Part shown: one piece after another, positions 9,859-45,949 of the stretch
Numbering within the stretch: the first letter of the stretch is position 1
Layout of the letters: each line of letters starts with the position of its first letter
Source of the DNA: Camelus dromedarius
Lineage: Eukaryota
Direction: 5' to 3'
Assembly (NCBI RefSeq): GCF_036321535.1
Contig: NC_087436.1
Coordinates: forward strand, 45,696,001-45,760,000
Length of the DNA: 64,000 nt
Made by a program: the position numbers and the translations under genes
Notes under the pieces: model-generated
Told to the model about the DNA's origin: nothing
Seen by the model: only the letters and a program-made list of their open reading frames with translations
The model's database searches: none

Positions 9859-10011
<153 letters not shown>

Positions 10012-11853
10012 TTAATGAAAAATAAGGTCAAGATTAGTGTTAAATCAGATATGTGGAAATTTAGTAAAATCAATTGCTAATTTCAAAAATAATATCCTGA
10101 AGTGAGTAAGTTAAATAAAGATCAAACATTTATGAATTGCTGTGGCAGTGGAGATAAAAAAAATAAAGAAAAAAATTTCAAATCTAAAAAAATTAAAGAT
10201 TTCTAATTCTGGAAAATGACTCTAGTTTTCTCAAAGCTTCTTTTCTGTCAAACAATACTTTTAAAGTTATTATCATCAAAATTCCAAAATATTTTAAATG
10301 GAACTTGGGAAAATGATTCTCAAGTTCCTCTGGAAAACAAATTGTATGTGTAAGAAAACTAAAAACATTGTATGACTGTGGTTAGGTGTAGAAAGAGAAT
10401 GAGCGGCTCTAAACAAATATTAAAATGTATTATGAAGGTCAAAGAACTACAACAGTGGGTAATGAGTGCAGGAATAGGCCAAGAGGATAATAGAACTATA
10501 CAGAAACCTTGTTTTAGAAAAGACTCAAGCACATGTAAGAATACAGCATATGATAAAGGCATTTTAAATAATTGTGAATGTGAAAGATCATCCCGTAAAT
10601 GGTAGAGAAATAACTGAGTAATGATTTGAGGTAAAATTTAAATCCCTACCCTACACCATACATCAAAATAAATTCCAAATAAAATATATACCACAGAAGT
10701 TCTTGAAGTTTTGACAGTCAAGTGAAATTATGTGTGTCCTGCCTGGCACATGGTGGACTCTGTAACGCATTAACATCAAGCACTTGAGTGTACCTGCCCA
10801 TTGGTAAACCACATTGTATTAGATGAAGGGAAAGTTCCATAGACAGTCACAAAGGTAGTGGGCAATTTCCAAGAAATTCATTACCAGCCATCACATTTTT
10901 CTGTTCCTTGTTTCCCAAGCACAAATGACCCAGACAAACCCATTCCCCATCATCTCTGAATCAGTGATAGACAATATACATGATTTTAAACATTTATTTC
11001 TACTTAGCTATGTTGGTACAATCAATAAGAAATCTATAAGAAAGTATCTGAATATGTAATCCTAAATTTGAATTGAGAATGTCCATATGAACACATAATG
11101 TATTTCTCTTTTTTAAAAGTGTATTCCTAGTTCTGATGCCCCAAAAGGCCCAGAAACAAAGACTAACTTTGTAGCAAATTACGTTATCTAAATACAATTT
11201 CTCAACAAAAGGAAGCAGTGGCCTTGAGAGATTGTTGGTTCTAGGTCTAGATTACAGAATGTACAAGAGGAGCCTGGAATATATGTCCTACCAGGTAAGA
11301 GGAAACTATCAAAGACTACTGGCATCAGGAACCCATTTGAAGAGGCTCCACCAGCCAAAGAGGAGACAATTTGCTCATCAGTAAGAATAACAACTGCAGT
11401 GGATTGAAACATATTAAAAATGTTTTTAAAAATCTAGGCGTTCATAATAATACTTAAAAAAAAAAAACTGGCCACCCTAAGAAGGTGTTAAGGAACAAAC
11501 CCATTATTCTAAATATAAGTAAACAAAGAAAAAAAAATTCAACATTCAGCCTGCCTTAACTGTAAAAATTGTATGTTGGGGTAATCAAACAGTTCATGAG
11601 AAAAGATCTCTTCATAAAGGTATTACAATTAATAATTTAAAAGAAATATTAGAACTATATATCACCATTCGAAACTCTTGATTAAATAATGGATCTAGAA
11701 AACGAGTGTTATGGCTGCTACAACCATCCCCTGAAAGACCATTGGGCTGTTTCTCGCTCCCAGCTGTCTTGGCACCTGCTCTTGGTTGAGGCGGGTCCCA
11801 CATCTAAGACAGAAAAATTGCGGAAGAAAAAAAGACAAAAAAAGCCCCTGGAA

Positions 11854-11977
11854 GGGGGAGGGTATAGCTCAAGTGGTAGAGGGCATGCTTAGCATGCACG
11901 AGGGCCTGGGTTCAATCCCCAACACCTCCTCCAAATATAAATAAAAAATAAACTTAATTACCTCCCCCTCATAAAAC
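11854..11977 (+). mobile_element. tRNA-derived SINE (camelid Vic-1-like) inside the RPL30 pseudogene
   Basis: GGGGAGGGTATAGCTCAAGTGGTAGA A-box, GGTTCAATCCCC B-box, A-rich tail; TSD AAAAAAAG(C/T)CCCTGGAA at 11837-11853 and 11978-11994. Confidence 0.9.
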
Positions 11978-12213
11978 AAAAAAAGTCCCTGGAATCATCA
12001 ACTCTAAGTTCCGACTCCTTATAAAAAGTGGAAAGTAAGTATTGTGGGTACAGGAAAATGTTCAGACAAGGCAAAGGGAAACTGTCCATCCTTGCCAAAA
12101 AATGCCCAGCCTTGAGGGAATCTGAAACAGAGTACTACACCATGCCGCCCATCCTTGCAGTGGCAATAATACTGAATTTGGCACAGCATGTGGAAAATAC
12201 TACAGGGTATGCA

Positions 12214-12712
12214 AGTCACCGGCCCTGCCCACTGGGGTCCTCGGGAAAAGACAGAATTTACGTGATAAGGCCCAACCTCTTCTTTGGGCTTAGTCTCGGT
12301 TCACTTGCCTGTGGCGAGTGCCGTGTGCAAAGGTCTTCCGCCTAAGACATCGGATTGGAGGCGGCAGAGACACCTCACGTCGGGACCGGGCGCGGAGCAG
12401 CTGTGCACACCTCCAACCAAGATGGCGGCACCAGGCGTTTGCGGAGACGCTCTGCCTGCGCTGTGATCTGGAGCTGAGAGGCGCAGCTGCGCCTGGTCTC
12501 GCGAGAACTCCGCACCCTCCCGAGCTGAGGAGATCCGTATAAGGCAGCCCTGTTGGCGCCTTTCGGAGAGAGCATGTGCTGGCGCTTCTTTATTCCTAAA
12601 TCAAAAAATATCTTCCCTTTGCCTCTGCACAGAACTTGGTCTCCTTCTATTGGCCCGACGGACGCCGGGCAGGAGGACCCTTGCTGGGATGGATGCAGGA
12701 CGGTCGGTAACA
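12214..12712 (+). mobile_element. CpG-rich solo LTR (ERV1-like) inside the RPL30 pseudogene
   Basis: 499-bp insert splitting RPL30 at TGCA|TGCA (4-bp TSD at 12210-12213 and 12713-12716); imperfect terminal inverted repeats AGTCACCGGCC / GGTCGGTAACA; TATAAGG at 12538; its 3' end (ATTGGC...GGACC...CGGTAACA) resembles that of the LTR at 33949-34462. Confidence 0.75.
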
Positions 12713-13608
12713 TGCACGCTGGCTATTACTGACCCAGGTGATTCTAATATCGTTAGAAGAATGCCAGAAAGGACTGGTGAAAAGTAAATCATGCGTATTT
12801 TTTCCTCAGTAAAACTGTCTTGAAAAAGAAGGACCATTGGGAACTTTATAACGGATGACAGAAAGAGAAACCACCAGATGTTATGTGTCTCCTGATGGAA
12901 GAATAAACACACCTATTAAGTATTATTGACAAAATTTCAAAGCTGAATCTGATCAAGGCTTTAGATCTAACTACAAGTTTGCAGAAGGACAGGGACATTT
13001 AGGTGTGTTAAATCCAGAGTGTGAGAAACTGCAGGAAAAATATGGTTTCTTCTGTAAAAGTTGCAAGGGGAAAAAAAGAGGAGAGTAAATCCATAGGATA
13101 AAAGAGAGAGGTATCAAGCTAATACAACACATGGAGCTTGTTTGGATACTTAGCCAAACATATCAACCGTTAAATATTCTTTTAATAATTCGAATACTGA
13201 CTAGTGTTTGCTGTTACTAGGAATACTGTTAACTTTTTAAGTTCTGATAATGGTATTGTGGTTATACCTGAAAACTGGCTGGGTATTACATGGTACTAGG
13301 GAATTACAGCTAGTTTTTTAGATATAATAATGTATCACGGTTGTGTTTCTTACGTGCTTATCTTTCAGAGATATATAATGAAATATAATAAAATATGGAT
13401 AAACAAACAGTAAAATATATAAATGCATGCTTATTTCCTAACCTTGGAGGTTTTGATTTAACAGATCTAGGGTAGAGCCCAGTCATTCATGTTTTAAAAA
13501 GCAAAATAAAATAAAACCCTGAGGTAATTTTGATGCATACTGTTGATCAAAGACCACCAACCCAGACTGTGGCCACCTTAGAAACATCAGTGAAAATGAA
13601 GGAAATCA

Positions 13609-13815
<207 letters not shown>

Positions 13816-14821: not shown

Positions 14822-15097
<276 letters not shown>

Positions 15098-22598: not shown

Positions 22599-23532
22599 TA
22601 AGATAAGGCCCATGAAAATACTTTGGAAACTATGAGGATAGATATAAATGTAAGAGACGATGATGATGATGATGATATCTATAACTATTATGAATGAGAC
22701 TCAATAATCTTTATTCACAGTAGTTGTTGGTTCTGATTTTGTTGTGAGTCATCACCACTTGCACAATGAGTTGTATTTGAGCTTGAGTCAAAATTTCTCC
22801 TGGAAGGTATCTGGCAGTATATCAGCTTCACTGCCTTTATGTGTGGAATATGGTCACCATCTATTTTATAGTCTTGCCATGAAGTTGTTGCTCTTTAATG
22901 TGCTGCAAGCCACAACTGAATTGTTTCCCACAGTTCTTGCTTTATAAATTCAAATAAGTTAATTTTTAAAAAACAACTTATCTGAACAAATGCTTCACCT
23001 CTTGGAATTTATTTTATTCTTGGCAGTTTCTCATTTCTTGCATTGAAAGTAGGCACTACACAAGTTAAAATATAGTTTCTATCTAAGTTTTTAAAGAAAT
23101 CAGGTAAAAAGCATTTATACTATTAGTTAATTGCCTGAGGATATAAGAAATAACAATACCAATTGCCCCTAGATTCTAACCTCGCTTTGACAATCTCAAG
23201 CCAGTTCTCCTGTTTGGTCTCCACAGCTCTTGTCAGGAGTGACATGCAAACGCATTTATATACTAATTGTGGGAGGGACTCATAGTCCCCATCATGTCCC
23301 ACACTATTACCAAAACCTAGTGGCATCTAACAATGAGGAAGAAAAGAGAACAAACAATTTCATCTTTGCTTTGGAAACTCACAAGTCTAGTTGCAGATAA
23401 AATTAAATATGTCTTAAAGCCTTCTTAAAATAAAATGTTTATATAAAGGCAGATGTTACTGTGACATCATTTATGTGGGATATAAGCCATATGGAAGCAG
23501 CCTACCTAAAAAAAATTACACGCAAAGGAATT

Positions 23533-24001
23533 TGTATGGCTGTTCACATAACGGACACCATCTTGGGCCCTGACAGTTTCTCCTGTCCTTCCACTGACCC
23601 TCCTCAGTACTGTGCTGTACAGTGAATCACTTCTCTGTCATCAGGGGCTTTCTAGTTAACAATCATGAGGACCAGGTAGCCTCTATGCTTGTTAGTTCCC
23701 AATGATGAAAATCTTCCCTAACATTCCCAGCACCCAAGGCCAGTTACCCACTGATAAATCCTGTTTCTACCCCCTACCCCTATACCCTCGGTTAACTACA
23801 AAGTGGTCCCAATGGCCCCTCGGCAGTGTGGAGTACAGCTGTGAGTGCTTCCGAATCACTGTCTGCCCGATCCCGCCCTGTGAGTAGGTTATCCTGTAAT
23901 AAACTGATCCATTGATTATGTGGGGCCACCTGCCTCATTTTTCCATCTTACAATGCCTCCTCAGTTCAGTGGGTACTTTTTGGTTCCTCCATCCTCCAAC
24001 A
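23533..24001 (+). mobile_element. Solo LTR (5-bp TSD, ERVL-type) in intron 5
   Basis: TGTATGG...CCAACA termini, TSD GAATT on both sides, AATAAA about 100 nt before the 3' end. Confidence 0.85.
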
Positions 24002-25283: not shown

Positions 25284-25740
25284 TTAATCACCTACCTTTT
25301 CAACTGATTCTTATTTGGGGTTAGAAACAGATATTAAGTTTAAATTTTTATTTATATAGCCACAATCTGAATTAATAGGATATAATTTTCTAGCTCCAGA
25401 TCCATTGCCTCATTCTTTTGCTACTCAGCACATACTTGTGATGAAAATAAAATAGGGAAGAAAATAAGAACAGGATAAGAGTAGACTTCTGGTTTTGTCA
25501 ATTTAATATGCCTAATTTCTGCCTCTTGCCAGTCTACAGTCAGTTGCTGGCAAGACAGCAAATCAAATGAAAGACAGACACTTCACAAAACATATGATAT
25601 AATAAATCCAAAAAGAATAACTATAACCAGCATGTGAAAATTTTATTATATGCCAAATATTCTGTTAATTATTTTTATTGGCATTTCTTTACTAAATCTT
25701 CACAATAACCCCAAGAAGTAGGTACTATTATTATCCCCAT

Positions 25741-26229
25741 TGTATGGCTGTTGGCTTAACTGAAGCCATCTTGGGCCCGTTCAGTTCCTGCTGTCTTTCT
25801 ACTGAGCCTACCTGGGACTATACTGTGTGGTAAATCACTTCTCAATCGTCAAAGGCTTTGTAGTAAATAGATATTATTTAACAATCATTAGGATATGGTG
25901 ACCTCTGTGCTCAGTAGTCCCCAAACAATAATGTAAACCTTCGCTGAAGTATTTCCAGCACCCATAAGACTAGTTACCCATTCACAAAATCTAGACTGAG
26001 GAATGCACTTACCCCCATACCCTCGGTTAACGGTAAAATTGTCCCAGTGACCCCTCGGCTATGCTGAGTGCAGCTGCGAGTTCTTCCAGATCATTGTCTG
26101 CCTGATCTCACCCTATAAGTTACCCTGTAATAAACTGATCCATTGATTATGTGGAGCCGCCTACCTTGTTTTTCCATCTCAAGATACCTCAGTTCGGTGG
26201 GCACTTTTCGTTCCCCCAACCTTCCAACA
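25741..26229 (+). mobile_element. Solo LTR of the same family as 23533-24001, in intron 4, inserted into a MIR
   Basis: TGTATGG...CCAACA termini; long shared blocks with 23533-24001 (CCATCTTGGGCCC, ATACCCTCGGTTAAC, CTGTAATAAACTGATCCATTGATTATGTGG); degenerate TSD CCCAT/TCCAC; MIR halves on both sides. Confidence 0.85.
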
Positions 26230-36165: not shown

Positions 36166-36780
36166 CTCAGTATAACTTTAAAAAAAAAACCTCATAATAA
36201 TGCAGTTTTGCAGAACAGTGAATGCTGTTGGAAGGTTCCTGTGCTGTAGATAATCTTTCATCTTAAATAAGCATGTTTAAATATCCCTCAGCTTTCAGCA
36301 TAAATTACACTCAATTTTATTTAAAGACTAATGTTACCAGACTAAAATGCATTCCCCAACACTAAAGCATCAGAAAAGTTTTTCCAGATGTTTCACACAC
36401 ACGGCAAGACTCAGAAATCACTATCTTGACCTGTTCTCCGAGTTTTGTCCCTATATTCTCCACTCTCTGCTGGGCATTTCCAGTTGCAGATGTCCCAAGC
36501 CCCAAAAGTCCCTCTGCATGTTAAAAATTAGTTTACACAACACCTTCTGATTCATTTGCATTTATTGAGAAGATTGAATTTGATATAGGAATTTAAAAAT
36601 TTGGTCTAAAATTCAATATGTTTTAATATTTAGTCTTTGATAACCATTACAGACCAAAAAAAAAAAAAGATAATTCACAATTATATCTATATCAAATACA
36701 AGAAATACTTCATTGGCTATATTTGCAAAATCACAACTAGTTTTTCAACTAGCCTAGCAAATTTCTGCCTTCTTGTATTT

Positions 36781-36849
36781 AAAAAAAATTTTATTCAAGT
36801 ATAGTCAGCTTACAATGTTGCATCAATTTCTGTGGCACAGCATAATGTT
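36781..36849 (-). mobile_element. Short L1 tail
   Basis: TSD CCTTCTTGTATTT at 36768-36780 and 36850-36862. Confidence 0.75.
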
Positions 36850-39311
36850 CCTTCTTGTATTTTAATCAATAAATGCAAACTAACCAGAAGGTGTTGCATT
36901 TTATATTTTCAGCAAATGGAACTGAAGAGACAAAAATTCTTTCTTTAGAATTTTTAAAAAATAGTTTGAAAAATTCTATTTATAGGAATTTTTTAAGAAC
37001 GTAGACATGAGAGTTTTTAATAAGTAATACATTGACATTGACTCAACAACCAAATCACATAGCAATAGAAACATTACCATCATCAGTTTTCAAACTGCTC
37101 TCTCCATCATAAATTTTCTACCACCAGCAAGTCACTTTCTCACTCATTATTAGAATATCACCTTTAACTGGGAGGGATAAAATTCTGTTGTTTTAGTTAT
37201 TTTTTGAGTAGTATACCAGTGACATCTATTTATCATCACAGAAAAGATCAAAGAATCTGAAACACTTGTCCCTTTTTAAAAAGAAAAAATATGTAGCATT
37301 TGATTGTTCTCATAAGATACTCTGCAGGAAGCAGGTGTGACAAATATGTTCATGGTTACTCTTCATTCAATACAAAGTATTACAAGGAATCTAGTTTAGT
37401 CTTGTAATAAAAACAAGGAGAGATGACACCAGTGACATCCCACAGCACTTTGTGCAATATCAGTTTCAGCGTCTTTTCCCTGAGAGACTGTGGTGAGCTG
37501 TATTATAGGGCCCTCTGTCATCTCACCCAAGAATCCTTTTTGTTGATGGTCCAGGAAATATAGTGGCTCCACTGCCACTGAGTACATGTATACTTTTTTT
37601 CATGATAGATTTGTTAATATAGAAAGAAGCCATGAACTATTAAGAAAATGTCTTCTCTGGTGTATTTTTCCTTTACTGGCTACCGAAAAAGTATCTCAGT
37701 TCCTTGTGCATTTCATTGTTGAAATAGAGAGGCAAATATAAGAGTGGCTAGGATCACTGGCACTGAAGACAGAACATCCATGTTGACTCTTTATTGGCTC
37801 CACCATTAATTAGCTGTCTGACCTTCAGCTCATTACTCAACCTCTCTGTGCATAGGTGTCTTCATCTTGGAAATGGAGATGATAATAGGACTTAACTTAA
37901 TAGAATTATTATGAAGACTAAATAAATTAATTCATGCCAAGGCCCTAGACTTTTCTCTGACATATACTGAGTTCTCAGTAAATGTTCACTATTAGTTTCT
38001 CAGAAATACCATAAGATGAGATATATCAGAAACACCTTCTACTCTCACTCAAACTGTATAATTTTTCTAATACTTATTTCTTTAAAATTTTAGTAATGCT
38101 TTCTGTGAAGTTTTCAGTAGTGTTTGCTGAAAAAAAGAACACAATTAATCTGTGGTCACGTGGTTTTCTGTGTATTATTTTAGCATGTTTCACCATGGCA
38201 GGGGAGTAGGATGCTATGATGTCAAAAATCTCAAGGGAGCCTTCTAACTTTTTATCAGTAAGCTTAGTAAATGTAGTCTGAAACATCATAACTTTGAACA
38301 CAACTGTGAAAATCATAAAAAGTTATTTTCACATTCTGGATATTCATTCTTAAATATATTGCTTGTTCTGATGGCTTCATGTTACCATTAGCTATCGTTT
38401 TGAGGCAAATCTTATACTTGTTGCAAGCTTATCACTAATAATAAGCATAAATCCATTTTTTAGGATATCTTCTTGTTAATTTCTTTTTTGCCTTGTTTTT
38501 TTGTCAAATCTAAATGTTTTTATCCTTTATTCAGCCAACAAAGAACTTATTCTAGTAATAAAGGGTCAGTTCCCTCATTATCCTCTTGAGGTTGCATTAT
38601 TAGCATTGTTTGCCATCTTTACTTTCTTTGCAGAGGGTTTTGAAGCCACTTGTTAAATTGTGTAGGAGTTAGTTTTGATAAAATCAACTAATATGGTCCA
38701 TATGTCATCAGGTAAACTGCACACCTCACCCTCTAAGCTGGGAACCTCCCTGTCCCCTCAGGATACCCTAGGTGATTGGACCCACCCATCATCACTCTCA
38801 GTCTAAACACGTAAATGATGTTGAATAAATATTTGTTGAATTGATCTGAATTAATTCATTGGTGTCATTGGTGCCTTAATAAAAGAAAATCTTAGTCCTA
38901 CATTCAAAGTGCTTCCAACATAGAGAGCTAGTAGGAGACTTTCCCTAAACCAACTTAACATTATTAATACTTTTCAATAGAAAGAAGTAATGAAATATTA
39001 CATCGGTAGGCTTTCAACAAACAATCGTGGCAGGAAGCATACACTTGGTAAGTTTTGTAGAATAGGAGTTGAGGGTCCCGAGTTCTAGTTCTGTTAGAAT
39101 CCTGATGAGTCACTTCATCTCTCTGGATTTCAGCCTCTCATCAGTAACATGAGGCAGTTGGCTAGATGATTTTGAAGGTCCTTTCTAATCTAACATTTAT
39201 CAGCTCAATTCCTAACCTGCCTGTCTTACACAATTCAGTAGTTTCCTTGTTTGCAGCATTTTTGTATAGAAGCCTAAGCTTGTGATAAATCCATAAACAG
39301 ATCTTATTCAT

Positions 39312-39432
39312 TTTGGGGGGGCTGGGAGGTAATTAGGTTTGTTATTTATTTTTAGAGGAGGTACCTGGAATTGAACCCAGGACCTCGTGCATGCGAGGCA
39401 TGTACTCTACCACTTGAGCTATCCCCTCCCCC
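39312..39432 (-). mobile_element. Vic-1-like tRNA-derived SINE
   Basis: SINE body in reverse; perfect TSD CAGATCTTATTCAT at 39298-39311 and 39433-39446. Confidence 0.9.
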
Positions 39433-41207: not shown

Positions 41208-41369
41208 GGGGAGGGTATAGTTCAAGTGATGGAGTGCATGCTTAGCATGCACAAAGTCCTGGGTTCAATTCCCAGTACCTCCTCTAAAAAAATACTAAAT
41301 CTAATTACCTCTCCCCTCCCCCACCAAAAAAAAAGAGTGCCAGCTATAAAACTAAACTTGGATTTTTAA
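41208..41369 (+). mobile_element. Vic-1-like SINE with extra 3' sequence
   Basis: SINE body 41208-41334; TSD AAAATGCAGAG(A/G)ATTCA at 41187-41203 and 41370-41386. Confidence 0.85.
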
Positions 41370-43663: not shown

Positions 43664-45949
43664 AGCAGCCAATCAAACCCTGCCTCACTTCTGACCTGTG
43701 ACCACCAGGCCGAAAGGGCACCCCCAGCCCTGGAATTTCGCAGCCCCTTCGTAGCCTGATGGTTCAAGAAAAGTCTCTTCAGGTAGTCACCACCTGGGAC
43801 CTACCCCCAAGGTCTTCTTTTCGATCTCAAACTTAACATTCTCGCACTGTGGAGGGGAAAACAAAGCAGAAAGATTGGTTTAACCTGTTGGCAGAATTTC
43901 TTTTCTGAGAACTGTTTTGTTTACTAAGACACTTCAGTGTACTATTTAGTAATTTTTTTAAAGTTTTTTTTTTTTTTTTTAATTTACAATGAGAAGCCTA
44001 GGATATGATCAAGAAAACAGAACTGGAGGAGGAAGCAATCTACACTGTTCTATGTAAGGATGTGTCTGAAGGAGACCAAGGAAACAGAATCAGGTGTCGA
44101 TCAACGTAACCGAGAGGAGGCGGGAGGCTGGCGCTCGAGGGAGAGACGGCGGGTCTTTTCCACCGAGAACAGTTAATTAACCTTTAAGCACAAGAATGAA
44201 AAATGTTTTGTTCTAGTTGCTTGATGTGTGGGATCAGGATGTGAATGTGACTAGGGTTTTTTCCCCCCGCAAGCCTTCAGTTAAAATTGGTACCGTTACA
44301 GCCCAAGCACTGGCTCTTTTGAGAAGTAAAACAAGGTGGCGTGGATGTGAGGTGGCCGAGTGCGGGGACGTGAGGTGACGGGGTGTGGGGAAGGGACAAC
44401 GCGAGAGGGACGCGAGGCACAGAGGAGTGGAAGGACCGGAGTGGACACAGCCTTTCCTTCCAGTCTCTGTCCTCATGTCCAGCCATCCTCCAGGATGTAG
44501 GAGGGAAACACTGGGTTCCCCCGGAACATGAGGTGGAGGCACAGCCCATTTAGATTTAAAAACCCTAAGCTACTGTGACCACAGCAGGCCATACAGCTTT
44601 AGAATTTTTGCCCAGCCCCCAACCCATTTTTAGGGATGTGGTCTGTTTTTCTGACCATTATGGAAGTATTTCAGCGCAACCCAGCTTCAGGAGGGATCCT
44701 AGGGTGCTAAGTTAGCCAACTGGGGAGGTCAATTTTTATTTCCACCATTACACATTATGAGAAAAGTCATTCACTATAAATAACTATGCTTTACTGGGGA
44801 AAAAAAATAGCAATCCTTTTGCATTTCTCTTCATACTTTAGTGAAAAGAGCTGAGCTAATAAGGAAGAAGGATATAGCATTTATTCCATCATCTTACTAC
44901 TTCTCTGAAACAGTTTCTCCCAAGTAGGATGTATATCACTTAGAGACTGTAAGATGGTTCATTACTGTGTGAAAAGAAAATGTTAGAAGTGTTACCTGTT
45001 GTAAATGTTCTCAATATTAGTTTATATATAGTATGTAGGTAACTGATAAATGCGTACTGGGAGCATATGCCCACATTTTAGCTTTTTTACAGATGGAAGG
45101 GAATTGGGAGACTACTGATATTAAAAAAAAAAACCAACTACTCATACTGCACAAGGAATTATTTCAAATGGATTTTCATGAAGGCAAATTTATAGATGAT
45201 AAAGTAAGATTTTGAATTTATTTGAGCCAAATTATTAGTCCATTTACTTTTGATGGGAAATAATCAATTACTTGCTCTACTCTGAAATAAGTGAATAAGT
45301 CCCACCTTCCAACTTCTAAATTGAATGTCAAATAAAATGGACAAATCTCCAACTAGCTCCAAACTGTAAATTTATTTAAAGAACTGATTTATCATTCCCT
45401 TATATGACCTCAACAGCTTTAAAAACCTTAAAGAAATTGTTTCCAAACATAAGGAAAAATACACAAGATATTTAAATAATCATTTTCAAGTGGCTTATTT
45501 TTGCTGTTCTTAAAAATATTACTGGTAAGAAATCTAACAAGGAGACTCACTTTGCACTCAGTGGAATTTTTTATCAGTTGATGTCACAGAAAGACAAATA
45601 TTGGAGCTGCAGTTCCACAAGGGCACTCACTCAAATCGGCTTGATATGATTTTGTATGTTTAATAAACATTTCTTCTAAGCACAAAAATACAAGTTATGA
45701 TGTGTAAAAGAAATTCAATTATTATTGAAGAAACCAAGCCATATTTAGAAAATACCACCTCTGTTACTACCAATAAAATGATTTAACCACAATAAAAAGA
45801 TTAGTAGCAGCTGAGATTAGCGAGTGCTTATTATAGACCAAGTTCTGTCTTATGCACTTTACATGTATTAGCTGAGTGGTGCTAAACCCAGGCTGCCTAT
45901 TATGCTTGTTAGAATCACCAAGGGAGAGTAACAGAAAATGATGCTCAGA

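What the first reader, a model, noticed from the sequence alone, without database searches (positions are those of the whole stretch)
12214..12712. CpG-island-like solo LTR carrying YY1, BANP and TATA motifs, pointing antisense into EGF
Seen: about 35 CpGs by hand count in 499 bp within otherwise CpG-depleted intron 7. In order it carries an inverted CCAAT (ATTGG 12354-12358), a CRE-like TCACGTC, a perfect YY1 site CAAGATGGCGGC (12418-12429), a perfect 16-bp palindrome AGGCGCAGCTGCGCCT (12479-12494), the palindrome TCTCGCGAGA (12497-12506) and TATAAGG (12538-12544). No intact AATAAA follows inside the LTR. Known: TCTCGCGAGA is the methylation-sensitive BANP (CGCG element) motif of CpG-island promoters, and YY1 is a common LTR/core-promoter factor. 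Inference: this is a young or methylation-protected LTR promoter that could fire on the + strand through the RPL30 pseudogene 3' end toward EGF exons 7 and 6. That would give a lineage-specific antisense RNA or a methylation-switchable enhancer in EGF.
Basis: partly seen in the sequence, partly recalled or inferred. Interest (0 to 1): 0.7.

Follow-up and report, generated by a model that had tools for sequence, protein, structure and literature searches.

The report
Solo retroviral LTR inside camel EGF
A 499-base leftover of a retrovirus-like element sits in an intron of the camel EGF gene and still looks like a promoter, which is normal for a fairly young element of this kind, and nothing yet shows that it affects EGF.

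Summary
12214-12712 has 35 CpG (o/e 0.80, against 0.20 for the window), and every motif is at the stated place. The insert has a 4-bp target-site duplication, a CA right end and 8/12 inverted termini. It splits a decayed RPL30 retrocopy at residue 92, in intron 7 of camelid EGF (minus strand), and is probably a solo class I (ERV1-type) LTR. I could not name the family or find copies.

The regulatory reading is unsupported. Young LTRs are typically CpG-rich, pass CpG-island criteria and tend to be methylated; YY1 sites and antisense orientation are also normal. Under recalled decay rates, 35 CpG survive 4-11 Myr of methylation. A + strand transcript would meet poly(A)-type hexamers about 240 and 330 nt on, more than 700 nt short of exon 7. 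I obtained no expression, methylation or read-level data. The one unusual feature is a perfect BANP/CGCG element 31 nt before a TATA box in an LTR, which I did not see in my literature searches. Verdict: most likely an ordinary passenger LTR; low interest.

The parts
12214..12712 (+). probable solo LTR (class I/ERV1-type by TSD length; family not identified), 35 CpG, o/e 0.80
12210..12213 (.). left copy of the 4-bp target-site duplication
   Evidence: eL30 residue 92 appears on both sides of the insert
12713..12716 (.). right copy of the 4-bp target-site duplication
12354..12358 (-). inverted CCAAT; chance-level
   Evidence: 10339 of 20000 shuffles hold one
12375..12381 (+). TCACGTC, weak CRE/E-box-like word; on the minus strand it overlaps a donor-like GT at 12378 (6 of 9 consensus)
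12418..12429 (+).
   Evidence: 2 of 20000 shuffles
12479..12494 (.). 16-bp perfect palindrome, third copy of a loose 15-nt GC-rich repeat (12392, 12441, 12478)
12497..12506 (.). CGCG element / BANP motif, perfect
   Evidence: 18 of 20000 shuffles; motif identity from PMC6192621 and PMC10206803
12538..12544 (+). TATA-like box, 31 nt after the CGCG element; predicted start about 12563-12572 (inferred)
   Evidence: TATA-to-start spacing from PMC6192621
12589..12594 (-). AATAAA on the EGF sense strand; one of 2 in intron 7, not enriched
11747..12827 (+). decayed RPL30 (eL30) processed pseudogene that hosts the LTR and a SINE, between 14-bp direct repeats (13/14) at 11733-11746 and 12828-12841
   Evidence: (E 4e-7, 7.5e-8, 5.9e-10)
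11854..11975 (+). tRNA-Ala-derived SINE inside the pseudogene, between 19-bp direct repeats (18/19); CpG o/e 0.16
12808..12813 (+). AGTAAA followed by a short A-run: the pseudogene's poly(A) signal and tail remnant (inferred); first likely end point of a + strand transcript
12902..12907 (+). first canonical AATAAA downstream of the LTR, about 720 nt short of exon 7
13630..13755 (-). EGF exon 7 (calcium-binding EGF domain)
14906..15031 (-). EGF exon 6
9883..10011 (-). EGF exon 8

Best explanation
An LTR retroelement integrated into an already dead RPL30 retrocopy in intron 7 of EGF in the camel lineage (shown: site, TSD, nesting). It later collapsed to one LTR by recombination (inferred). Its CpGs, YY1 site, CGCG element and TATA box are the promoter kit of the parent element, kept because the copy is fairly young (inferred). 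It probably sits methylated and silent in most tissues (inferred from the literature). It was tolerated because it points antisense to EGF. If it fires when unmethylated, the + strand RNA is probably short and ends near 12820-12930, without reaching EGF exons (inferred). It is a passenger.
For: 4-bp TSD, CA right end, 8 of 12 inverted terminal bases. eL30 residues 71-92 left and 92-115 right of the insert. No poly(A) tail or long TSD, unlike the neighbouring retrocopy and SINE. Little decay signature: CpG 35 against 43.9 expected, TpG+CpA 64 against 60.3. Older repeats in the same gene have lost CpG: five SINE copies, 76-83% alike, o/e 0-0.36; a 73%-identical repeat pair, o/e 0.25 and 0.41. 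From 44 CpG, 35 remain after 3.8-11.4 Myr at assumed rates of 6-2e-8 per CpG per year (rates recalled, not from a call). [quoted passage not shown] Intronic LTRs are biased antisense (PMC1794541). YY1 binds, activates or silences many LTRs (PMC10968565). Hexamers at 12808 and 12902 precede exon 7.
Against: No family copies were obtained, so youth is inferred from CpG content itself, which is partly circular. The left end is not canonical and no poly(A) hexamer follows the TATA box inside the element. If both are post-insertion changes, two in about 20 diagnostic bases would point to an older age than the CpGs suggest, which favours protection from methylation. PMC8605555 (section 14) reports low LTR activity in dromedary and Bactrian camel over 25 Myr, with bursts only in C. 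ferus (0.5-2.5 Mya) and alpaca (1.5-4 Mya). The CGCG element and YY1 site, holding 3 CpG between them, are perfect.
Confidence: 0.65

Rival explanations
1. The LTR escapes methylation (germline, placenta or more widely) and acts as an orphan CpG-island promoter. BANP at the CGCG element with YY1 and TBP drives a short + strand RNA through the pseudogene 3' end, plus divergent minus-strand RNA, with at most a local effect on EGF.
For: Perfect CGCG element 31 nt before a TATA box. In PRDX1 this pair gives a directional start 25-26 nt after TATA plus divergent starts, and CGCG activity is lost on methylation (PMC6192621). Low CpG decay next to a non-canonical left end and a missing poly(A) hexamer.
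Against: CGCG elements outside CpG islands are more methylated, and CpG-rich young ERVs tend to be methylated. Orphan CpG islands rarely contain TEs (PMC12582260). Youth explains the CpGs without protection.
Confidence: 0.2
2. One reading: a + strand antisense RNA reads through to EGF exons 7 and 6, or the LTR is a methylation-switched enhancer, and this regulates EGF in camelids.
For: Orientation and promoter motifs. A donor-like site at 12738 (8 of 9 consensus) could help read-through.
Against: Four poly(A)-type hexamers (12808, 12902, 13387, 13505) lie in the 1086 nt between TATA and exon 7. Antisense is the default orientation for surviving intronic LTRs. The isolated BANP BEN domain binds methylated and unmethylated CGCG almost equally (PMC10206803), although BANP is listed as methylation-sensitive in cells (PMC9729108), so the switch is not settled. 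No EGF antisense RNA of this kind appeared in the listing (2 papers).
Confidence: 0.05
3. The element works on the EGF sense strand as an intronic poly(A) site (AATAAA 12594-12589) giving a truncated pro-EGF RNA, or as an internal promoter spliced to exon 8.
For: Canonical hexamer on the minus strand. Divergent transcription is a property of CGCG elements. Donor-like GTs at 12378 and 12261 (6 and 7 of 9).
Against: No acceptor-like site on the minus strand of the element. The hexamer is 1 of 2 in intron 7, against 72 in the window. An RNA joined to exon 8 lacks the signal-peptide exon; the first in-frame Met is residue 496 of pro-EGF.
Confidence: 0.05
4. Not an LTR but a captured piece of a housekeeping CpG-island promoter (YY1 plus CGCG are typical of these), inserted by repair.
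For: [quoted passage not shown]
Against: Exact 4-bp duplication, CA end and 8 of 12 inverted termini. The length and TATA position fit an LTR. The collections searched are not camelid genomes, so the misses carry no weight.
Confidence: 0.05

Closest known systems
Solitary LTRs of class I (ERV1-type) endogenous retroviruses in introns; camelid ERV1 LTR elements of PMC8605555
   Same: About 0.5 kb, short TSD, CA end, inverted termini, TATA box, antisense to the host gene, no coding sequence. That class I elements make 4-bp TSDs is recalled.
   Different: No poly(A) hexamer inside and a non-canonical first base. No sequence match to a named family was tested.
Young CpG-rich LTR promoters silenced by methylation, e.g. 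mouse IAPLTR1/1a driven by methylation-sensitive CREB1 (PMC9729108, passages)
   Same: CpG-rich LTR with a CpG-containing motif for a ubiquitous activator; logic of 'on when unmethylated'.
   Different: Here the candidate motif is BANP/CGCG; there is no full CRE (6 of 8); IAP is class II; no activity data here.
CGCG-element plus TATA promoter of human PRDX1 (PMC6192621, passages)
   Same: One CGCG element next to a TATA box in CpG-rich DNA; predicted directional start after TATA plus divergent starts.
   Different: PRDX1 is a host CpG-island promoter; this is a transposon insert in an intron, with methylation state unknown.
YY1-bound LTRs (HERV-K LTR5Hs, MLV, IAP; review PMC10968565, passages)
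   Same: YY1-type site in the U3-like part.
   Different: YY1 can activate or recruit TRIM28 silencing, so the site does not predict activity.

Membership tests
solo LTR of an LTR retroelement | short (4-6 bp) target-site duplication | tested here: met
   4 bp at 12210-13 and 12713-16; eL30 residue 92 on both sides
solo LTR of an LTR retroelement | CA 3' end and short inverted terminal repeats | tested here: met
   ends in CA at 12712; 8 of 12 terminal bases match
solo LTR of an LTR retroelement | TG 5' end | tested here: inconclusive
   With the TSD the first base is non-canonical; the duplicated 4-mer itself begins TG, so 12210-12712 reads TG...CA with no TSD. The inverted-repeat register favours 12214.
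solo LTR of an LTR retroelement | TATA box in the 3' half, no gag/pol/env | tested here: met
   TATA-like box at 12538; the 499 bp are bounded directly by pseudogene sequence
intact, functional LTR | poly(A) signal after the TATA box | tested here: not met
   0 of 18 hexamer variants on the + strand between 12541 and 12712
named camelid ERV1 LTR family (Dfam/Repbase) | sequence similarity to the family and dispersed copies | not testable with these tools
   no genome held; no second copy in the window; 0 of 1 viral and 0 of 9 metagenome loci extend beyond the 18-21 base seed
CpG island | length, GC and CpG o/e thresholds | tested here: met
   436 windows of 200 bp pass GC 0.5/oe 0.6 and 324 windows of 500 bp pass 0.55/0.65, among starts from 11901; young LTRs pass these trivially
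CpG island | unmethylated in the germline, open chromatin | not testable with these tools
   no methylation or chromatin data
BANP/CGCG-element promoter | perfect TCTCGCGAGA within about 50 bp of a start site | tested here: inconclusive
   motif present at 12497-12506; the start site is only predicted, about 57-66 nt downstream
BANP/CGCG-element promoter | BANP binding and transcription in vivo | not testable with these tools
   no ChIP, CAGE or read-level data
L1-mediated insertion (retrocopy or SINE) | poly(A) tail and TSD of about 7-20 bp | tested here: not met
   4-bp TSD and no tail, against 14- and 19-bp repeats for the neighbours

The most novel reading that the evidence does not exclude
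A camel-lineage LTR family uses the BANP/CGCG element with YY1 and a TATA box as its core promoter, i.e. a retroelement that took over the housekeeping CpG-island activator. This copy has escaped germline methylation and works as a newly born, bidirectional orphan CpG-island promoter inside EGF, making a short antisense RNA and a sense RNA that change EGF output in camel kidney, glands or placenta.
Probability: 0.08. Interest if true: 0.6.

Novelty: new member of a known kind. Interest (0 to 1): 0.22.

Why it matters
As it stands it is one of many intronic solo LTRs, useful at most as a presence/absence marker among camelids and as a neat nested insertion (retrocopy, then SINE and LTR). It would matter if the CGCG element is family-wide and BANP-bound: that would add BANP to the methylation-restricted activators that drive LTRs, and would spread ready-made CpG-island-type promoters across camelid genomes. 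It would also matter if this copy is unmethylated and alters EGF, a growth factor of kidney and exocrine glands (recalled).

Tried and rejected
Family copies: no genome is held for this window. Blastn of the LTR against the window gave only itself and matches of 12-17 bases. An 18-base LTR motif gave 1 viral and 9 metagenome loci; 0 of 10 match beyond 18-21 bases, so all are chance. No supplement of PMC8605555 could be read; a repeat library there might name the family.

Expression: one search listed 4 RNA runs with shares 0.44, 0.44, 0.20 and 0.14, two runs of uncertain kind at 0.98, and one raw single-cell run. None was laid on the sequence, so they are no evidence for or against transcription. 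The four RNA shares roughly track each run's size relative to the DNA runs (847, 937, 242, 178 against about 2000 million letters), as background would.

Earlier findings of the scan: 5 look-ups, nothing. Pfam found nothing for one pseudogene frame, so PDB sequence search was used. The Atlas named exon 4 only as an LDL-receptor class B repeat; EGF was named. No paper came up for a CpG decay rate (0 hits), so the rates are recalled.

Rejected: the CCAAT and 'CRE' words as evidence (chance-level or weak); the 52-aa and 32-aa ORFs starting in the LTR as genes (no support); an L1-type origin.

Full report
Observation. The stretch 12214-12712 has 35 CpG, 59.3% GC and CpG o/e 0.80, against 0.20 for the window. 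No other 499-bp stretch has more than 22 CpG, the median is 3, and the intron 7 flanks have o/e 0.15 and 0.22. All six motifs are at the stated coordinates and no + strand AATAAA lies inside. In 20000 dinucleotide shuffles of the element the YY1 12-mer occurred 2 times, the BANP 10-mer 18, TATAA on the + strand 785, TCACGTC 811 and CCAAT 10339; a palindrome of 16 bp or more occurred in 33 of 4000. Only the YY1 and CGCG words are clearly rare, and since they were chosen after the fact from many known motifs these counts overstate their significance.

Setting. Exon 4 matches pro-EGF of Camelus ferus at 100% and of alpaca at 99% over 75 residues. Tblastn with alpaca pro-EGF places 12 exons on the minus strand; the element lies between the seventh (about 13755-13630) and eighth (10011-9883). 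Mismatch counts are slightly lower to the C. ferus protein in exons 4-7, so the window is probably from the genus Camelus. The element sits inside a decayed RPL30 retrocopy: eL30 residues 30-65 and 71-92 match on the left and 92-115 on the right. The retrocopy has 14-bp direct repeats (13/14) and also holds a tRNA-Ala SINE with 19-bp repeats (18/19).

What it is. A 4-bp duplication flanks 12214-12712, which is why residue 92 appears on both sides. The right end is CA and 8 of 12 terminal bases form an inverted repeat. The first base is non-canonical in that register. The alternative reading 12210-12712 gives TG...CA but no duplication. There is no poly(A) tail and no long TSD, so an L1-type insertion is rejected. 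A TATA-like box lies 175 nt from the right end; none of 18 poly(A) hexamer variants follows it inside the element. I call it a probable solo LTR. The class I (ERV1) label rests on recalled knowledge of TSD length and of such LTR ends, not on a match. No copy was found: no genome is held, the window has none, and 0 of 10 loci from motif scans of viral and metagenome collections extend beyond the seed. These collections are not camelid genomes, so the miss says nothing. In one search, 14 of 24 listed runs (organism A; 13 flagged as a possible source of the window) hold all sampled words of 11990-13400, and 2 runs labelled organism B hold 0.98. The insert is therefore real and probably present under a second, very close label. 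The list shows best holders only and says nothing on fixation or on Lamini.

Young or protected. CpG is 35 against 43.9 expected and TpG+CpA 64 against 60.3, so decay is slight. Older repeats nearby have lost their CpG: five SINE copies 76-83% alike have o/e 0-0.36, and a 73%-identical repeat pair has 0.25 and 0.41. With recalled loss rates of 2-6e-8 per CpG per year (a paper search for a rate found nothing), 44 CpG fall to 35 in 3.8-11.4 Myr, and to 17-32 in 16 Myr. Youth is therefore enough. [quoted passage not shown] Against this: the age is inferred from the CpGs themselves. The odd first base and the missing poly(A) hexamer, if both arose after insertion, suggest more non-CpG change than a few million years would give. 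PMC8605555 (passages and section 14; supplements not readable) finds recent LTR bursts in C. ferus and alpaca but low activity in dromedary and Bactrian camel. A second CpG-rich insert in intron 1 (21 CpG in 500 bp, o/e 0.68) shows that CpG-rich patches occur in this gene without promoter motifs having been noted there.

How it would work if active. The CGCG element ends 31 nt before the TATA box. In PRDX1 this pairing gives a main start 25-26 nt after TATA and divergent starts on the other strand; methylation abolishes CGCG reporter activity, and CGCG elements outside CpG islands are more methylated (PMC6192621, passages). A + strand RNA from about 12568 would meet AGTAAA with an A-run at 12808 (240 nt) and AATAAA at 12902 (334 nt), then 13387 and 13505, before exon 7, which is 1086 nt from the TATA box. 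A short RNA is the likelier product, though a donor-like site at 12738 (8 of 9) could aid read-through. YY1 sites are common in LTRs and can activate or silence (PMC10968565, passages). Antisense is the favoured orientation of fixed intronic LTRs (PMC1794541, passages), so it is no sign of function. BANP is called methylation-sensitive in cells (PMC9729108, passages), but its isolated BEN domain bound methylated DNA nearly as well (PMC10206803, passages). On the EGF sense strand, AATAAA at 12594-12589 is 1 of 2 in intron 7 and has no acceptor-like site upstream in the element. A divergent RNA spliced to exon 8 would lack the signal-peptide exon. No read-level, methylation or chromatin data were obtained, so activity is open in both directions.

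Comparison and novelty. It works like a young CpG-rich LTR promoter under methylation control, closest in logic to IAPLTR1 with CREB1, and in layout to the PRDX1 CGCG-TATA promoter. It fails the test for an intact LTR (no poly(A) signal) and was not tested against named families. I saw no description of this locus or of a BANP motif in an LTR in the listings (5 papers; 5; 14 of 16; 15 of 233; 2). I read passages of only eight papers, and the library lacks most subscription journals and Repbase/Dfam, where the family is probably already entered. Earlier findings of the scan gave nothing.

Verdict. Observation confirmed, interpretation partly supported. Best reading: a fairly young passenger solo LTR whose CpGs and motifs come from its parent (0.65). 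An unmethylated, locally active promoter is the main rival (0.2). Regulation of EGF by antisense RNA over its exons is unlikely on present evidence (0.05). New member of a known kind; interest 0.22.

Noticed in passing
window 23532-24001 and 25740-26229: Two same-strand copies of a 470-490 bp repeat, 72.7% identical, flank EGF exon 5; CpG o/e 0.25 and 0.41. Probably older LTR-like or MER elements; not classified.
   Followed up: partly
window 43960-44500: Second CpG-rich patch in EGF intron 1 (21 CpG in 500 bp, o/e 0.68), next to a long T-run, like the 3' end of a minus-strand retrocopy; parent not identified, no convincing TSD found.
   Followed up: partly
window 12689-12787: An ATG in the right end of the LTR, in a good Kozak context, is in frame with the C-terminal remnant of RPL30 (32 aa); an upstream 52-aa ORF starts at 12574. 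Probably chance.
   Followed up: no
window 11733-12841: Nested insertions: RPL30 retrocopy (14-bp repeats) holding a tRNA-Ala SINE (19-bp repeats) and the LTR (4-bp repeats); possible presence/absence markers for camelid phylogeny.
   Followed up: partly
window 11858-11933, 39355-39429, 41211-41284: ARAGORN calls three tRNA-Ala genes; these are SINE heads, 81-83% alike.
   Followed up: yes
window 14906-15031: The alpaca isoform X2 model (P0001) has no match to exon 6, i.e. a predicted exon-skipped pro-EGF; the C. ferus model (P0003) is a fused prediction that uses 42549-42496 as an exon.
   Followed up: no
window 36538-36896: Inverted repeats of 31 nt (90%) about 300 nt apart, like the ends of a small DNA transposon, with a LINE-tail-like repeat between them.
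   Followed up: no
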